Sequence record: MT225100
DNA length: 50,953 nt
Reading direction: 5' to 3' (one strand)
From: Escherichia phage Lys8385Vzw
In this document: positions 30,001 to 36,000 of the stretch, one piece after another
Layout of the letters: each line of letters opens with the position of its first letter
Position numbering within the stretch: position 1 is the stretch's first letter
Made by a program: the position numbers

Positions 30001-33000
30001 CGTTGATAATCATTGCAGCAACACCAGCCTGCCCTGCATCCGTGACCGACACATGCTCAAGAGTTACGGCCATTGCGTGTTTCAGCCCCGCATTCTCCGC
30101 CGCCAGCGCCGAAAACTTCTCGTGTGCCAACTTAACAGCTGCATCAGCCTGCTTAATTGACTCAATCGCTTTCTGTTGGTCTTCGGACAGAGCCAAAATC
30201 TTGGCCTCCGCTTCAGCAAATTTACGCACCAGATATTCAGCATTTGTTTCATTCACTTTCAGATCTCGTGGTACACATTTCCCGCGAAGAAACCCTTCCA
30301 TTTCGAAAACATTCATGCGCATGTGCGTAACTCCGATAACTCGTTAAAGCGCTCCATAAACATCCCGTAGGCATGGCTCGGAGCCAGTGGAATAACTTTG
30401 AACATTTCTGTTGCCGGGATACCTTCCAGTACTGGCCAGAAAGAGCCATCATCAAGCCCGAGATCGCGGCGTTCGGTTGCCAGCATGATGAGATCGGCAT
30501 ATTTCACAGGCGTGCTCATAACCGGGGGTAACCCGTATTTCTCACGGATTACGGCGTCTATTTTTTCTTCCATCCGTTTATAGTCAGGAAGAAGGCGTTT
30601 CAGTGGAGCGGGAATATCCTGGCAATACGCTTCTGTTGCATCATGCATTAACGCTTCAAAAGCAAATTCCTGCGGCACCAGCTGGCTGCAAAGCACCGCA
30701 TGTTGGGCGACACTGTAGAAGTGAGAAAGATGACCGGCAAAGCGGCAGATATTTGAAAGGGAAACCGCGATATCGTTAATCACGATGTCGTCTTTATTTA
30801 TCTTGTCATAATAAAAATGCTTCCCGGAAAAAGTTTTAATAAATGACATTTTGTTCTCCACGCATATGCGCTGCACCGCGCTGAGTTTGGGTAAAAGGAA
30901 GCCATCACCATCCGGTGATTATTGAGTTAATTACGTTTCCATAAATGCCCCCGCAGGGGCATTTGCAGTAATGAAATCAGGCGGTGAAAGTACCAATAAA
31001 GGTTTCTACTTTGCTGTCTTTGAATTTCTCAACAAGCAGATCACGAAATTCGTTAGCCATATCTTCCTGCACCGCTTCCAGCTGAATAATGCGCAGAACC
31101 AGTACAGGACGATCGCCAGTGATAATGCTGAGGCGTAATTTAAACGGACGTTCTTTCAGGCCTTCAAACGGAACGCATTTAAATTCAAATGCCACTGGCA
31201 TAATGTCTTTGGTCTTCGCTTCGACAGACTCCATCAGGGAGCGTTTGCCGCTGAAGTCATTGTCTTCAAAATCAGCGGTCTGGTTTGCTTCAATTGTGAT
31301 TTTACGGACTGCCGCAGCCGCTTTGGTTGCCTGAATGGTGTCACCATTAGCATCAAAGCCCACAAGGTAGTCGGCCCAGTCTTCAATCCATTCTGCCAGT
31401 GACTTCTGGGAGTTACGCTCGCCATTAACAGACAACAGAGCAGAAAACGGTGCTGTCTTTTTCAGTTTGAGGGTGGCGGTGTTATCTGCGTGACCTGGTT
31501 CATCAATAGTACCCAGGTTAAGCACACTGACGGCTCGCATATTATCGGCATCGATAAAGCAGCGGGTGCCTTCATCTGCAAGATCTTTAGAATAACGGGT
31601 AAAGTCATCGATGCTGGCAGTGGAAAGCGCACCACGGAAACGGAAGCGATTTAAATTAAATTTTTCCAGATCATGAATGCGGAAATTCTCAGGCAATGCC
31701 ACAGCATCGGCACCAATATTACTGATAATTTCATTAACACCCTGAGCAGAAATAAGGGCATGGATTTGATTAATTGCGGTTGCGTCTAAGTTCTGAGACA
31801 TAATAAGTCCTCACTATATAAAGATATTCAGTGATGAGATAAATAATCAGTTAATTAAGAACGATATTAATGACCTGCTGCGCGGAGTTTTCCGTCAGGT
31901 TCACCGGCAAGAGTCAGTAATTGTCCCTGGTCTTCCTGCAGAATAGTCAGTCGACCACCGCGATTGACATACATCGGCGTTTCGGTGGTGTCTTCTTCGG
32001 AAATTTTCCCGCGGTTAGTCGGGCGAACATATGAGAGTTTGTGTTTGATTTTCACACGGTTCTCATCAAACGGTTCGATTTCCAGGTTGAGCGAGACCTT
32101 ACCTTTGGTTTTCGTGTTCATCACACCGGAAGCGACTTCACTGAGAACTGCGCCGATTTTGGTTTCAAATACGCCGCCGTCCAGCTCCCCGATAAATGCC
32201 TGCACATCAGTACTGCGTTCGCTAGCCATTTTGCTGCTCCTCATCATATCGACCCTGCAAGGTCGGTTGGTTTCTCCACAAAACAGAGAAGAACACCTGC
32301 GGTGGCAGCCGCCCGGCTGGATTGGGTTATGAGCCCGTCGTCCGGTGATGCTCTTCTCTGTTTTGTAAAAATGACGGTACCAGCCGGAAGCAAGTGTACA
32401 AACTGGTACCGCCAAAGCAGTGGCTGTTGTGGTGACCGGTGCTGATCTCCGGCTTGCGGTTATTTCAGACTCTCACGGGCGTTTAATTGCCCCGCCGAAC
32501 AGCTCTTTTCCGCAATAGCTGCAATGTCTTTCGCGCATCAGCCTGCGCATTCACCACAACTCTAAAAACAAATGTAGGATATCCAACATGTGAGTGTCAA
32601 GAGTTTATGTTGGTTATCCTACATAAAAAGATAGGCTCATAAAAAAACCGGGGATACCCCGGTTTTGCGATAGTGAGGAAGATGTGTCAAAAATCCATTA
32701 TTACTTGTTTGACAAGACCAACTATTCTGCAGTTCTCACCGCATTCAATAGTTTTATAGTTAGGATTTAGTGGGACGAGATACCTGTTCGGCCAGTCCTC
32801 AACAAATTTTTTGAGTGTCGCTTCTTGCCCACCATTGATATGGGCAACAACGATTTTTCCGTTAATACACTCTGTATCAATAATATCTGGCTCTACGATA
32901 ACGATAGAACCTTCTGGTATCGATGGTGAGCCGAGGGGATTGGTCATTGAATCACCACGGACCCGTAGTGCAAATGCCATTTCTGATACAAGGGCGGTAG

Positions 33001-36000
33001 TATAAACCCACTCTTCAGCATCTTCTTTCCTGACACCAGGCTCCGTCATTGTCCATGAACCCGCCTGAACCCACGAGATTAGGGGGACTTTTTTAACTGC
33101 GAATATTTCAGGTTTTAGATTTATCTTTGGTTCAGGCGAGCCTTTTCCGCTAACAAGCCACAGAGGATCGCATTTAAGTGCGTTGGCTAGGGCTTGAAGG
33201 TTGGCTCCATTTGGTTGGTAGTCGTCCTTTTCCCATCCAGTAACCGTGACACGGTTCACACCAGTCAAATCAGCCAGTGCTTGTTGTGTCAGGTTCAGTT
33301 CTTTTCGCCTTTGGCGAATACGATCACTCATGTTCATCATGTAGGCAATCCTACCACATGCCCATGTAGGATTCTTGACATTGGCATGTTGGATATCCTA
33401 CATTTCTGCTTAACGTAATTTAACGGGAGACAGAAATGCGGAAATCCGACGTGATTAATTATTTCGGCGGAGTTTGTAAAACCGCCGAAGCCCTAGGTAT
33501 TAAGCATCCGTCTGTTTCAGAGTGGCCTGAGATTATTCCTGAAGGCCGAGCGTACCAGTTAGAAAAAATTACTAACGGGAAACTGAAAGTTGACGTGTCT
33601 TTATATCAAAAGACTAACAGTGCTGCGGCATAAAAACACCACAGAAATGAGGAATTAACCGTGGGTAAAGAACCTGAATGGAAAGTTGATAAACAACCAG
33701 CATGGCTGGTGGCAGCAATACGAAGAACGATTGCTGATTTACCTCATGGCTATGAGGAAGCAGCAGAAATTCTTGGTTTGTATAAATCTGATGATATCAC
33801 CCCAGCAAAAGATCAATTGCATAACAGACTGCGTAGCGGTGGGGATCAAATTTTTCCACTTGAGTGGACCATGGTTTTACAGGATGCCAGTGGTACCAGG
33901 CATGTAACAGATGCAATAGCCCGTCGTAGTAATGGGGTGTTTGTGCCGCTGGTGGTCATTGATGACATTGACAATGGTGACATTAATCAGCGGCTGATGG
34001 AGTCAATAGAATGGATTGGCAAGCATTCCCAGTACTTACGCAAGGCAACTGCTGATGGAGTTATTGACCAGGCTGAGCGTGAGCAAATCGAAGAGAACAG
34101 CTACCAAGTAATGGCGAAGTGGCAGGAGCATTTAACACTGTTATTTCGTGTTTTTTGTGCGCCGGAAAAGAGTAACGCCCGCGAGTGTGCAGCTCCGGGC
34201 GTCGTGGCGTCGATTGCTTCTGGTTGTGGAGAAACTAACGCATGAACAGTTTAACGGCAAATAACCGTTTGTCGCAACAGCTGGTGGTCAGTGTCGCTGA
34301 ACACCTGTTGTTACGGCATGAATGCAGATTACCAAATCACCAGGCTGTAAGTAACCACAGAGAACTTTACCTGACTGTGGGGGGCGAGTTGTGCAGGAAC
34401 TTAACCGCTGGTTTCGTGACGGAAGAGGGCTTTATGTCCATGTTATTCGTTGGGAGCCAGAAACACAGCGCGTTATCTATCTTCGCAAAGACTACCCGCA
34501 TGAGTGCTTTAGTCCTTTGTGGAAATTCAGGCGTGATTTTGTTGAGTGTGAAGGACCACCAGCATATTGATTCTGCAATTCCGGGACGTTACACTGCTCA
34601 GGCACCTTATAAAGCGGGTGCCGGGATTGGCGTCCTGAAATTCGCACATGCGCATAACCGCGCTTCAGCGGTTTTTTTGCGCACGTTTCCTCACATCCAA
34701 ATTATGGTGGGGCGTGCAGGGGCATCGAAAGATGCGCCGGGGTCATGTGCGACCGGTTACGCCAACCCTGTACGTCTCACCACCTCTGTGATTGGCGTCC
34801 CATGTGGTGAGTTTTCAAAATTCGCACATGAGGATGTCACTATGGCAACCACCCCTACCCAAACTCACCCTAAAATTGATGTTATCCATGGGAAGGCTGT
34901 TACCTCTTCTTTGGCCGTTGCCGAATATTTCTGCAAGCAGCACAAAAACGTTATTCAAAAAATCCAGACGCTTGAGTGCTCTGTTGAATTCACTGAGCTG
35001 AATTTTCAGCCCAGTGATTACACCGATTGCACAGGCCGCAAACTCCCTTGTTACCAAATCACCCGCGACGGTTTTGCGTTTCTTGCCATGGGCTTCACGG
35101 GTAAACGTGCTGCCCAGTTCAAAGAGGCATACATCAATGCCTTTAACCAGATGGAGAAACAGCTTTCAAAGCCCTCTGTACCGAGCGACGTTGCACATAA
35201 CGCCAGCGTTCTCTATTCCTACATTTCATCAATTCATCAGGTCTGGTTGCAGCAGCTTTATCCCATGCTGGAAAAAGCTGAATCACCGCTGGCTGTAAGT
35301 CTGTATGACCGAATTAACGATGCGGCATTTCTTGCCCGTCTTATTCATTCGTCGCTGAACTCTTCAGAGGTAAGGGGGCGCAAATGATCCGGAATATTTT
35401 CAAACGATTTACCAATCAGACTTTCCGTTGTCCTCGCCCCGGTCAGTGGTACACCACGCCTGCAGGGCATGTTCTACGTGTTAGCCTGGTGGACCGTGAA
35501 TGTCAGAAGGTGATTTGTGAACCGCTTGGTCGTAATTACCGCGTCAGTATGCCGCTTATAGCCTTTCGCTCCGGAAAAAACATGAAGCATCTCGGAGGTG
35601 CAGCATGAGTATGGAGCTGATGGTTAAAGCGATGAAAATTCGAGTGGGTAATCCATTGCGAAAACTGGTTCTGATCAAGCTGGCTGATAATGCCAGCGAT
35701 CAGGGTGAGTGCTGGCCCAGCTACCAGCATATTGCTGACCAGTGCGAGATTAGCAAACGTTCTGTGATGAATCATATTGCGGCCCTTTGTGAGTCCGGGC
35801 TGGTAAAAAAAGTCACCCGGAAAGGTGAAAAAGGTAACTCAAGTAATATCTATCTCCTTCATCTGGATGGTGCAGGAGATTCACTAGGGGGTAGTGCAAA
35901 TAATTCACTATCTGGTGCAGCAAATTCACCAGGTAGTGCAGGAGTTGCACCAGGGGGTAGTGCAGGAGATTCACCCAGAACCAGTCACTCTTTTGAACCA

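What the first reader, a model, noticed from the sequence alone, without database searches (positions are those of the whole stretch)
32575..33410. Immunity switch with five related operator sites sharing a TGTAGG...CCTACA half-site motif
Two sites at OL (tgtaggatatccaaca, tgttggttatcctaca) and three at OR (atgtaggcaatcctacca, tgtaggattcttgaca, tgttggatatcctacat) flank the cI repressor, each pair bracketing a TTGACA -35 element. This defines the immunity specificity directly from sequence; the leftmost OR site overlaps the annotated cI start.
Basis: seen in the sequence. Interest (0 to 1): 0.4.

Follow-up and report, generated by a model that had tools for sequence, protein, structure and literature searches.

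The report
P22-type immunity switch, Stx1 phage
This is the ordinary lysis–lysogeny control region of a Shiga-toxin-1 phage, built like that of phage P22 but with its own operator sequence (ATGTAGGATATCCTACAT), so it is a new immunity type of a textbook system.

Summary
Five related, partly palindromic sites flank a cI-type repressor gene: two on the left (OL1 32572-32589, OL2 32607-32624) and three on the right (OR3 33339-33356, OR2 33364-33381, OR1 33386-33403). The full unit is 18 bp, with consensus ATGTAGGATATCCTACAT. Four sites far exceed chance. The fifth, OR2, has one perfect half-site, and its other half is the TTGACA -35 of PR.

All five sites keep their positions in five relatives whose repressors are 60-90% identical, while the spacers diverge. 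In four near-identical E. coli copies, all 12 non-coding variant positions fall outside the sites.

The repressor has a P22 C2-like HTH domain and a lambda-like S24 autocleavage domain. Cro belongs to the P22_Cro family. Site length, OR spacing (22 and 25 bp), OL spacing (35 bp) and OR3 lying against the repressor ATG match P22. The half-site differs from P22's at positions 3 and 6, and the recognition helix differs too.

The window is a Stx1a-converting lambdoid phage. The same cassette occurs in 140 of 5426 complete E. coli genomes and in some Stx2c phages. I found no paper containing this operator sequence.

Verdict: real and correctly interpreted. It is a new member of a known kind, of low to moderate interest.

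The parts
32572..32589 (.). OL1, an 18-bp operator ATGTAGGATATCCAACAT. It overlaps the -10 of PL. Read in the promoter direction it is identical to OR1.
   Evidence: 28.0 bits; conserved in relatives; no variant positions inside it in E. coli copies
32571..32600 (-). PL, the leftward early promoter: TTGACA (32600-32595), 18-nt spacer, TACATT (32576-32571). The predicted start is near 32564.
   Evidence: 10 of 12 matches; -35 invariant in six loci
32607..32624 (.). OL2, an 18-bp operator ATGTTGGTTATCCTACAT. It lies just upstream of the PL -35, with its centre 35 bp from the centre of OL1.
   Evidence: 25.8 bits; same position in relatives and in P22
32644..32666 (-). Intrinsic terminator hairpin downstream of cI (CCGGGG-TAT-CCCCGG followed by a T run on the minus strand). 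It separates the cI transcript from OL/PL.
   Evidence: I23, 10-nt perfect arms; pairing kept by compensatory changes in relatives. The terminator scan did not list it.
32687..33340 (-). cI repressor, 217 aa. It has an N-terminal HTH_3 domain (P22 C2-like) and a C-terminal Peptidase_S24 domain, with Ala93-Gly94, Ser131 and Lys177.
33339..33356 (.). OR3, 18 bp. On the cI strand it reads TGGTAGGATTGCCTACAT. It overlaps the cI ATG by 2 nt and is nearly invariant in all relatives.
   Evidence: (18.9 bits)
33348..33356 (-). Candidate PRM extended -10 element (TGgTAGGAT) inside OR3. The predicted start falls at or next to the A of the cI ATG, which would give a leaderless cI mRNA. This is inference only.
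   Evidence: sequence; TGG end invariant in six loci; not detected by the consensus promoter scan
33364..33381 (.). OR2, 18 bp, ATGTAGGATTCTTGACAT. The left half-site is perfect and the right half is the PR -35.
   Evidence: half-sites 14.4 and -3.9 bits; the strong half-site is recognisably retained, with substitutions, in six loci
33375..33404 (+). PR, the rightward early promoter: TTGACA (33375-33380), 18-nt spacer, TACATT (33399-33404). The predicted start is near 33411. The cro Shine-Dalgarno GGGAG is at 33425-33429.
33386..33403 (.). OR1, an 18-bp operator ATGTTGGATATCCTACAT that overlaps the PR -10.
   Evidence: (28.0 bits)
33436..33633 (+). cro, 65 aa, P22_Cro family.
   Evidence: (PF14549, 7.6e-22)
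33661..34245 (+). YmfL / CII(CP76)-like putative establishment regulator, the second gene of the PR operon.
   Evidence: PF06892, 3.2e-6

Best explanation
This is the immC-type lysis-lysogeny switch of a Stx1a-converting lambdoid phage, and it is built like that of phage P22.

A CI repressor (P22 C2-like HTH domain plus LexA/lambda-type S24 autocleavage domain) is proposed to bind as dimers to 18-bp pseudo-palindromes of consensus ATGTAGGATATCCTACAT. OR1 covers the -10 of PR and OR2 covers its -35, so together they would shut off cro and the replication and late (stx1) pathway. OL1 covers the -10 of PL and OL2 lies just upstream of its -35, so together they would shut off the leftward early operon (yfdP-yfdQ-yfdR and onwards).

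OR3 lies on the cI start codon and on the likely PRM -10. It would limit cI expression when bound by excess CI, and shut it off when bound by Cro. SOS-activated RecA would trigger CI self-cleavage at Ala93-Gly94 (catalytic Ser131 and Lys177), derepressing PR and PL and ultimately inducing the phage and toxin.

Shown here: the sites, their non-random occurrence, their conservation, the promoter overlaps, the domain content and the P22-like layout. Inferred from homology: binding by CI and Cro, the order of occupancy, cooperativity, the PRM position and RecA-mediated cleavage.
For: Site statistics: 5 matches against 0.17 expected. PWM scores for four sites are 18.9-28.0 bits, against a maximum of 17.5 in shuffles.

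Promoters: TTGACA-18-TACATT occurs on each side, facing outwards. A 40-nt inverted repeat, 85% complementary, links PL and PR.

Proteins: cI is HTH_3 + Peptidase_S24 and Cro is P22_Cro. The N-terminal domain matches the P22 C2 structures 2r1j and 3jxb at 5.7e-14, and the C-terminal domain matches lambda cI at 7e-25 with the catalytic motifs aligned.

Conservation: five relatives (Erwinia, Enterobacter, Pantoea, Yersinia phage YeP1, coliphage mEp390; 60-90% amino-acid identity) keep all five sites at the same offsets while the spacers diverge. All keep the recognition helix [N/S]RVTVTGWE. Klebsiella phage phi6.3 and Pantoea phage AH07 have the helix SRVSVTKWE and carry a different motif, ATGTAAC..GTTACAT.

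Micro-variation: 12 non-coding variant positions in four near-identical E. coli copies all lie outside the 88 operator nt of 219 non-coding nt. The chance of that under a uniform model is about 0.6^12 = 0.002.

P22 comparison: the same scan on P22 gives 18-bp sites with OR spacings of 23 and 25 bp, an OL spacing of 35 bp and OR3 abutting the c2 ATG. P22 repressor is known to bind 18-bp symmetric sites with contacted positions 2-7 and 12-17 and consensus ATTTAAGATATCTTAAAT (PMC4267663, PMC5175364).
Against: There is no binding, transcription-start or immunity data for this phage or any close relative. OR2 is statistically weak on its own (10.5 bits; the right half scores -3.9) and could be only a -35 plus one half-site. 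No promoter meeting the scan's criteria was found for PRM, so its position is inference. The 35-bp OL1-OL2 spacing is about 3.3 helical turns and is not an obvious fit for adjacent-dimer cooperativity. The PWM was trained on the same sites it scores, so that analysis is partly circular. An IsrK/C4 RNA and Rha-type putative antirepressor module lies downstream, so induction may not depend on CI cleavage alone.
Confidence: 0.85

Rival explanations
1. There are only four true operators (OL1, OL2, OR1, OR3). The so-called OR2 would be just the PR -35 hexamer next to a chance or vestigial half-site, so the right operator would work with two full sites.
For: OR2 scores 10.5 bits, below the mean best score of shuffled sequence, 12.3. 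Its right half scores -3.9 bits. In the Pantoea and Erwinia relatives the strong half also drifts, to CTTACCT.
Against: The ATGTAGGAT-type half-site is recognisably retained at the same offset in all six loci, although with one to three substitutions in four of them, while the 4-nt and 7-8-nt spacers on either side are unrelated. E. coli variant positions hit 33362-33363 and 33384-33385 but not 33364-33381. P22 has an OR2 at the same position, 23 and 25 bp from its neighbours. Weak OR2 sites filled through cooperativity are normal in lambdoid switches (established knowledge of lambda).
Confidence: 0.1
2. The repeats are not protein-binding sites. They would merely reflect a duplicated promoter segment (PL and PR derived from one another) carried along passively.
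For: PL and PR share a 40-nt inverted repeat that includes the -35, the spacer and the -10.
Against: OL2 and OR3 lie outside that 40-nt duplication and still carry the motif. Each site is internally two-fold symmetric, which promoters do not need. Within the shared segment the spacer between the -35 and OL1/OR1 differs while the 18-mer is identical. The motif changes together with the repressor recognition helix in relatives.
Confidence: 0.03
3. The sites are recognised mainly by another regulator, such as Cro alone, the YmfL/CII-like protein or a host factor, and the S24 repressor acts elsewhere.
For: No direct binding data exist. The phage encodes several other HTH or Rha-type regulators.
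Against: The 18-bp length, the A/T-rich non-contacted centre and the layout match those of P22 C2, whose N-terminal domain is the closest solved homologue (PMC4267663). No other full site scoring above the shuffle background occurs elsewhere in the 51-kb phage. The motif tracks the cI recognition helix.
Confidence: 0.03

Closest known systems
Phage P22 immC region (c2 repressor, cro, OR1-3, OL1-3)
   Same: The repressor N-terminal domain is homologous (5.7e-14 to PDB 2r1j and 3jxb; 44% identity overall). Cro belongs to the P22_Cro Pfam family. Both use 18-bp two-fold symmetric operators with an A/T-rich centre. The OR centre-to-centre spacings are 22 and 25 bp here and 23 and 25 bp in P22. OR3 lies against the repressor ATG in both. 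The two best OL sites are 35 bp apart in both, with the PL -35 between them, and cI/c2 is the only gene between OL and OR, about 815 bp apart. The valine that inserts into the half-site (P22 Val33) is conserved as Val31 (PMC5175364).
   Different: The half-site is ATGTAGG here and ATTTAAG in P22, differing at positions 3 and 6. In the recognition helix N32 becomes R, Q37 becomes G and S36 becomes T. I therefore predict heteroimmunity. Here no third OL site is detectable and the cI terminator lies 19 nt from OL2, whereas P22 has six natural sites (PMC4267663). The PR hexamers sit over OR2-right and OR1-right here, as in lambda. The second PR-operon gene is YmfL/CP76-like rather than P22 c1. No N-like gene 24 lies downstream of PL.
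Phage lambda cI / cro / OR-OL switch
   Same: The logic is the same: divergent PRM and PR over three OR sites, a separate OL/PL cluster, and an S24 autocleaving repressor whose C-terminal domain aligns with lambda cI at 7e-25. The positions of the OR sites relative to PR (about -17, -39 and -64) are close to those I recall for lambda (about -18, -42 and -65; recalled, not checked here).
   Different: Lambda has 17-bp operators of unrelated sequence, a different HTH subfamily, a Cro of a different fold family, three OL sites, rexAB between cI and OL, and OL-OR 2.3 kb apart.
Stx2 phage 933W switch (three OR sites, two OL sites)
   Same: It is also a Shiga-toxin phage. It has the same count of recognisable operators, three at OR and two at OL with no OL3 (PMC5977221).
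   Different: The repressor and operators are unrelated in sequence. No megablast match to 933W-type phages covers the cI region, and the Stx2-phage CIs found by tblastn are about 35% identical. The lack of OR1-OR2 cooperativity in 933W is experimental, and nothing comparable is known here.
Coliphage mEp390 and Yersinia phages YeP1-3 immunity regions
   Same: Their repressors are 60-66% identical to this one, with the same recognition helix, the same five-site layout and the same core motif.
   Different: The outer operator positions differ (TAGTAGG / AAGTCAG variants), and Cro is only 49-62% identical. Whether these phages are homoimmune with the window phage is unknown. None has been studied experimentally, as far as the searched library shows.

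Membership tests
Lambdoid CI/Cro immunity switch (immC type) | Divergently transcribed repressor gene (HTH + S24 autocleavage domain) and cro gene | tested here: met
   cI lies at 32687-33340 (-) with HTH_3 1.1e-15 and Peptidase_S24 3.7e-25. cro lies at 33436-33633 (+) with P22_Cro 7.6e-22.
Lambdoid CI/Cro immunity switch (immC type) | Three related, partly symmetric operators in the cI-cro intergenic region that overlap PR and the cI start / PRM | tested here: met
   OR1, OR2 and OR3 lie at 33386-33403, 33364-33381 and 33339-33356. The PR hexamers lie inside OR2 and OR1, and OR3 overlaps the cI ATG. OR2 is weak on its own.
Lambdoid CI/Cro immunity switch (immC type) | A second operator cluster with an outward early promoter on the far side of cI | tested here: met
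   OL1 and OL2 flank the TTGACA of a minus-strand promoter, TTGACA-18-TACATT.
Lambdoid CI/Cro immunity switch (immC type) | Operators conserved among relatives and co-varying with the repressor recognition helix | tested here: met
   Six loci with helix [N/S]RVTVTGWE share the motif and layout. Loci with SRVSVTKWE (L009, L012) or SNVAISQWE (P22, Gally) have other half-sites.
Lambdoid CI/Cro immunity switch (immC type) | RecA-dependent autocleavage residues (Ala-Gly site, catalytic Ser and Lys) | tested here: met
   VQA93-G94SW, GDS131M and K177 align with the lambda cI cleavage site and with its Ser and K192. Cleavage itself was not tested.
Lambdoid CI/Cro immunity switch (immC type) | CI and Cro proteins bind the operators and confer superinfection immunity | not testable with these tools
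   This needs EMSA or footprinting and immunity tests.
Lambdoid CI/Cro immunity switch (immC type) | A PRM maintenance promoter that is autoregulated by CI | tested here: inconclusive
   The consensus scan found no promoter on the cI strand. An extended -10-like TGgTAGGAT inside OR3, 7 nt before the ATG, is invariant in six loci. However, the same bases are part of the operator and could also serve as a Shine-Dalgarno sequence.
P22 C2-type repressor/operator subfamily | N-terminal domain homologous to P22 C2, with the half-site-inserting valine | tested here: met
   The match to 2r1j and 3jxb is 5.7e-14. Val31 aligns with P22 Val33 (role of Val33 from PMC5175364).
P22 C2-type repressor/operator subfamily | 18-bp two-fold symmetric operators whose central four bases are A/T-rich and not contacted | tested here: met
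   The 18-mers have centres ATAT, TTAT, CAAT and ATTC. The P22 site definition comes from PMC4267663.
P22 C2-type repressor/operator subfamily | The P22 immunity specificity itself (half-site ATTTAAG) | tested here: not met
   The half-site here is ATGTAGG or ATGTTGG. The recognition helix is NRVTVTGWEK, against SNVAISQWER in P22. This is therefore not imm-P22 but a different specificity within the subfamily.
P22 C2-type repressor/operator subfamily | Six natural operators (three at OL) | tested here: not met
   Only two OL sites were found. No half-site above 6 bits lies between OL2 and the cI stop codon. P22 has a candidate OL3 at L011 3185-3202 (six sites per PMC4267663).

The most novel reading that the evidence does not exclude
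OR3 may be a dual-purpose element. Its invariant asymmetric outer end (TGG in place of ATG) would create an extended -10 promoter (TGnTAGGAT) that starts a leaderless cI mRNA at the overlapping ATG. By sequence OR3 is intrinsically a much better site than OR2 (18.9 against 10.5 bits). CI would then throttle its own synthesis at low concentration, giving the low repressor level and 'hair-trigger' induction proposed for Stx phages (PMC5977221). Under this reading, the OL1-OL2 spacing of 35 bp, conserved from P22 to this group and out of helical phase, would serve an OL-OR loop rather than adjacent-dimer cooperativity.
Probability: 0.25. Interest if true: 0.35.

Novelty: new member of a known kind. 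Interest (0 to 1): 0.2.

Why it matters
The switch controls lysogeny and induction of a Shiga-toxin-1a phage (stx1AB at 41969-43195 in the window). The same immunity cassette, at 99% identity or more, occurs in 140 of 5426 complete E. coli genomes, including O157:H7, O103, O111 and O121 strains, and in three Stx2c phages.

Knowing the operator sequence gives three practical things. It predicts which Stx and non-Stx prophages are homoimmune. It supplies reagents for measuring repressor-operator affinities, which the 'hair-trigger' model links to toxin output. It also adds a natural specificity variant to the well-studied P22 C2-DNA recognition system: the half-site changes T3 to G and A6 to G, alongside N32 to R and Q37 to G in the recognition helix. 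It does not reveal a new kind of mechanism.

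Tried and rejected
(1) I searched the full-text library for four 12-mers of the operator. The only hits were unrelated eukaryotic or primer sequences, so no prior description was found. Supplements and subscription journals are not covered by that search.

(2) The 22 papers that mention mEp390 appear, from their titles and abstracts, to be genome or virome surveys; none was opened.

(3) Fagerlund et al. 2022 (PMC8951638) classify the CI proteins of Stx phages into clades I-VIII and the replication regions into Eru types, but I found no operator definitions in the passages retrieved. This CI's accession and sequence were not in the supplements held, so its clade could not be assigned.

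(4) I looked for a third OL site. None was found by mismatch scan, PWM or half-site scan, and none is conserved in relatives.

(5) The consensus scan found no PRM. An alternative -10 at the OR2 edge (TACATG) was considered and rejected, because CI bound at OR2 would then block cI expression.

(6) An Rfam scan of 32150-33700 at E-value up to 1 gave only a sub-threshold Termite-leu match over the terminator, which I take as chance.

(7) I first assumed the whole window equals the RM8385 chromosome. In fact only 25357-49936 matches, at 99.9%. The first 25 kb are phage structural genes, so the window is a phage-order genome.

(8) I tried to extract clean operator motifs from more distant relatives (ZF40, the Vibrio phage, LLS). 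The simple palindrome scan did not resolve them.

(9) The relationship to the e14 cohE/croE/ymfL region, suggested by the YmfL annotation, was not tested.

Full report
OBSERVATION. They extend to 18-bp units:
- OL1, 32572-32589, ATGTAGGATATCCAACAT
- OL2, 32607-32624, ATGTTGGTTATCCTACAT
- OR3, 33339-33356, ATGTAGGCAATCCTACCA
- OR2, 33364-33381, ATGTAGGATTCTTGACAT
- OR1, 33386-33403, ATGTTGGATATCCTACAT

The idealised 16-mer TGTAGGATATCCTACA with up to 3 mismatches occurs 5 times in the 50,953-bp window, against 0.17 expected, and none of 100 shuffles reached 5. Four of those matches are the sites above, and the fifth (at 1811) is unrelated. A half-site weight matrix scores OR1 and OL1 at 28.0 bits, OL2 at 25.8 and OR3 at 18.9. 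The best score in any of 30 shuffles was 17.5. That matrix was trained on the same sites, so the scores are partly circular.

OR2 scores only 10.5 bits. Its left half is a perfect ATGTAGGAT (14.4 bits) and its right half is the PR -35 (-3.9 bits). On statistics alone it is not significant. Read in the direction of their promoters, OL1 and OR1 are identical, and they sit in a 40-nt inverted repeat that is 85% complementary.

ANATOMY. Between the two clusters lies a 217-aa ORF on the minus strand (32687-33340) with HTH_3 (1.1e-15) and Peptidase_S24 (3.7e-25) domains. The divergent 65-aa ORF (33436-33633) belongs to the P22_Cro family (7.6e-22). It is followed by a YmfL/CII(CP76)-like gene.

The promoter scan finds two strong sigma-70-like promoters, each matching 10 of 12 consensus positions, both TTGACA-18-TACATT and both pointing away from cI:
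- PR on the plus strand, 33375-33404. Its -10 is the end of OR1 plus one T, and its -35 is the right half of OR2.
- PL on the minus strand, 32600-32571. Its -10 is in OL1, and OL2 lies just upstream of its -35.

A perfect 10-bp hairpin followed by a T run (32644-32666, minus strand) lies between the cI stop codon and OL2. The terminator scan did not list it. Centre-to-centre distances are OR1-OR2 22 bp, OR2-OR3 25 bp, OL1-OL2 35 bp and OL1-OR1 814 bp. OR3 overlaps the cI ATG by 2 nt.

COMPARATIVE EVIDENCE. Relatives of the repressor were found in three bacterial genomes and two phage groups:
- Erwinia tracheiphila (90% identity in the best segment)
- Enterobacter soli (84%)
- Pantoea brenneri (76%)
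- Yersinia phages YeP1-3 (64-66%)
- coliphage mEp390 (60%)

All five compared loci carry five sites at the same offsets from the repressor gene, with the same OR spacing and the same 35-bp OL spacing. In alignments of the OR and OL regions, the invariant columns coincide with the 18-mers and the -35 hexamers, while the 4-8-nt spacers and the flanks are essentially unrelated. OR3 is TGGTAGGATT[G/A]CCTACAT in every locus. The terminator hairpin keeps its pairing through compensatory changes.

All these repressors share the recognition helix [N/S]RVTVTGWE. Klebsiella phage ST101-KPC2phi6.3 (51% identity) and Pantoea phage AH07 have the helix SRVSVTKWE and a different motif, ATGTAAC..GTTACAT, again lying over the repressor ATG.

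Variation among four of the most divergent near-identical E. coli copies points the same way. They show 12 distinct non-coding variant positions: 32591-32593, 32675, 33362, 33363, 33384, 33385, 33405, 33408, 33412 and 33430. None falls in the 88 operator nucleotides out of 219 non-coding nucleotides. Under a uniform model the chance of that is about 0.002. The variants fall close to the ends of the 18-mers, the nearest being 1-2 nt outside them.

COMPARISON WITH P22. Among solved structures, the N-terminal domain is closest to the P22 C2 N-terminal domain (2r1j, 3jxb, 1adr; 5.7e-14). The C-terminal domain is closest to lambda cI (3bdn, 7e-25), with the cleavage site and catalytic residues aligned as Ala93-Gly94, Ser131 and Lys177. 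Overall identity to P22 C2 is 44%.

P22 repressor is known to bind six 18-bp two-fold symmetric sites. The contacted positions are 2-7 and 12-17, the centre is A/T-rich and not contacted, and the consensus is ATTTAAGATATCTTAAAT. Val33 packs against the thymine methyl groups of TTAA, and Gln37 touches the base pair at position 6 (PMC4267663, PMC5175364).

Scanning the P22 immC region the same way gives OR sites 23 and 25 bp apart, with OR3 abutting the c2 ATG. The two best OL sites are 35 bp apart with the PL -35 between them. A weaker candidate OL3 lies immediately upstream of them. The window therefore has a P22-type layout.

The consensus here differs from the P22 consensus only at positions 3 (T to G) and 6 (A to G) and at their symmetry mates. 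In the recognition helix Val is kept (Val31), while N32 becomes R, S36 becomes T and Q37 becomes G. I infer that Arg30 reads one of the new guanines, but this is not tested. I predict the phage to be heteroimmune with P22.

DIFFERENCES FROM P22.
- No third OL site is detectable, and the cI terminator is only 19 nt from OL2. A switch with three OR sites and two OL sites is already known from 933W (PMC5977221).
- PR is placed over OR2-right and OR1-right, as in lambda.
- The PR operon continues with YmfL, and then with an ORF annotated as Rha, rather than with P22 c1.
- PL is followed by a roughly 335-nt leader and then yfdP-yfdQ-yfdR, with no gene 24 / N homologue.

MECHANISM (inferred by homology). 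In the lysogen, CI dimers would fill OR1 and OR2, blocking PR, and OL1 and OL2, blocking PL. OR3 lies over the cI start. The bases TGgTAGGAT inside OR3 resemble an extended -10 element placed 7 nt before the ATG, which would give a leaderless cI transcript like that of lambda PRM. This stays inconclusive for three reasons: the same bases are part of the operator, they could also act as a Shine-Dalgarno sequence for read-through transcripts, and the consensus scan calls no promoter on that strand. Occupancy of OR3 by excess CI or by Cro would shut cI off. SOS-activated RecA would drive CI autocleavage and derepress PR, leading through the Q-type antiterminator (40649-41401) to stx1AB and lysis.

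CONTEXT. Window 25357-49936 is 99.9% identical to the Stx1a prophage of E. coli O103 RM8385, and stx1A and stx1B are intact in the window. Window 1-25000 contains lambdoid structural genes most similar to those of Stx1a- and Stx2c-converting phages. The immunity cassette itself occurs at 99% identity or more in 140 of 5426 complete E. coli genomes. In the phage collection it occurs only in three Stx2c phages, vB_EcoM-720R4 and SKA5.

LITERATURE. None of the searchable papers holds the operator sequence in a phage context. The Stx-phage CI survey classifies repressors, but I found no operator definitions in the passages retrieved.

VERDICT. This is a conventional lambdoid, specifically P22-type, immunity switch with a previously undescribed operator specificity. 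It is a new member of a known kind. Interest is low to moderate and comes mainly from its role in Stx phages and as a natural specificity variant of the P22 C2-DNA system.

Noticed in passing
window 34242-35387 (RNA hits at 34602-34678 and 34700-34787): Rfam finds isrK (62.3 bits) and C4 antisense RNA (75.1 bits) inside the 381-aa ORF that RefSeq annotates as 'Rha family phage regulatory protein'. That ORF's Pfam Phage_ASH match (aa 117-211, nt 34590-34874) coincides with the two RNA genes. The Rha domain starts at aa 221, after an internal Met at 34842. This looks like a P1 immI / Gifsy IsrK-style RNA-controlled antirepressor module in the PR operon. The long ORF, and perhaps the 'Ash domain', may be a read-through of RNA genes.
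   Followed up: partly
window 32400-32560: The 136-161 bp immediately downstream of PL, before yfdP, are 98-100% identical in otherwise unrelated phages: mEp460, Stx2a phages, the 'plp' region of P1/RCS47-type plasmid prophages, and Klebsiella phages. There is no Rfam match. This could be a mosaic joint or a conserved leader or regulatory element. Its function is unknown.
   Followed up: partly
window 43274-43548: Just downstream of stx1AB lie the sRNA genes STnc100 (43274-43487, +, 190.7 bits) and AgvB (anti-GcvB; 43489-43548, -, 56.6 bits).
   Followed up: no
window 32644-32666, and L003-L008 at about 3175-3200: The cI terminator hairpin keeps its pairing through fully compensatory stem changes across six diverged loci (CCGGGG/CCCCGG, CCGGGC/GCCCGG, CCGAGC/GCTCGG, CCGGAT/ATCCGG, CCGACA/TGTCGG).
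   Followed up: partly
L005 (Erwinia tracheiphila) 2501-3150: The Erwinia copy of the repressor gene is truncated to 167 aa, although all five operators are intact. It is probably a decaying prophage.
   Followed up: no
window 37564-37890: A second, small (108-aa) protein annotated as a LexA-family / S24-like protein is encoded in the PR operon between the Dam-type methylase and rusA. Its role, for example a UmuD-like or decoy substrate function, is unknown.
   Followed up: no
window 1-25356 versus 25357-49936: Only the early and late-regulatory half of the window matches the RM8385 prophage. The first 25 kb are structural genes most like those of other Stx1a and Stx2c phages, at about 96% identity. 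The window therefore reads as a phage genome in packaging order and is mosaic relative to the sequenced prophages.
   Followed up: partly
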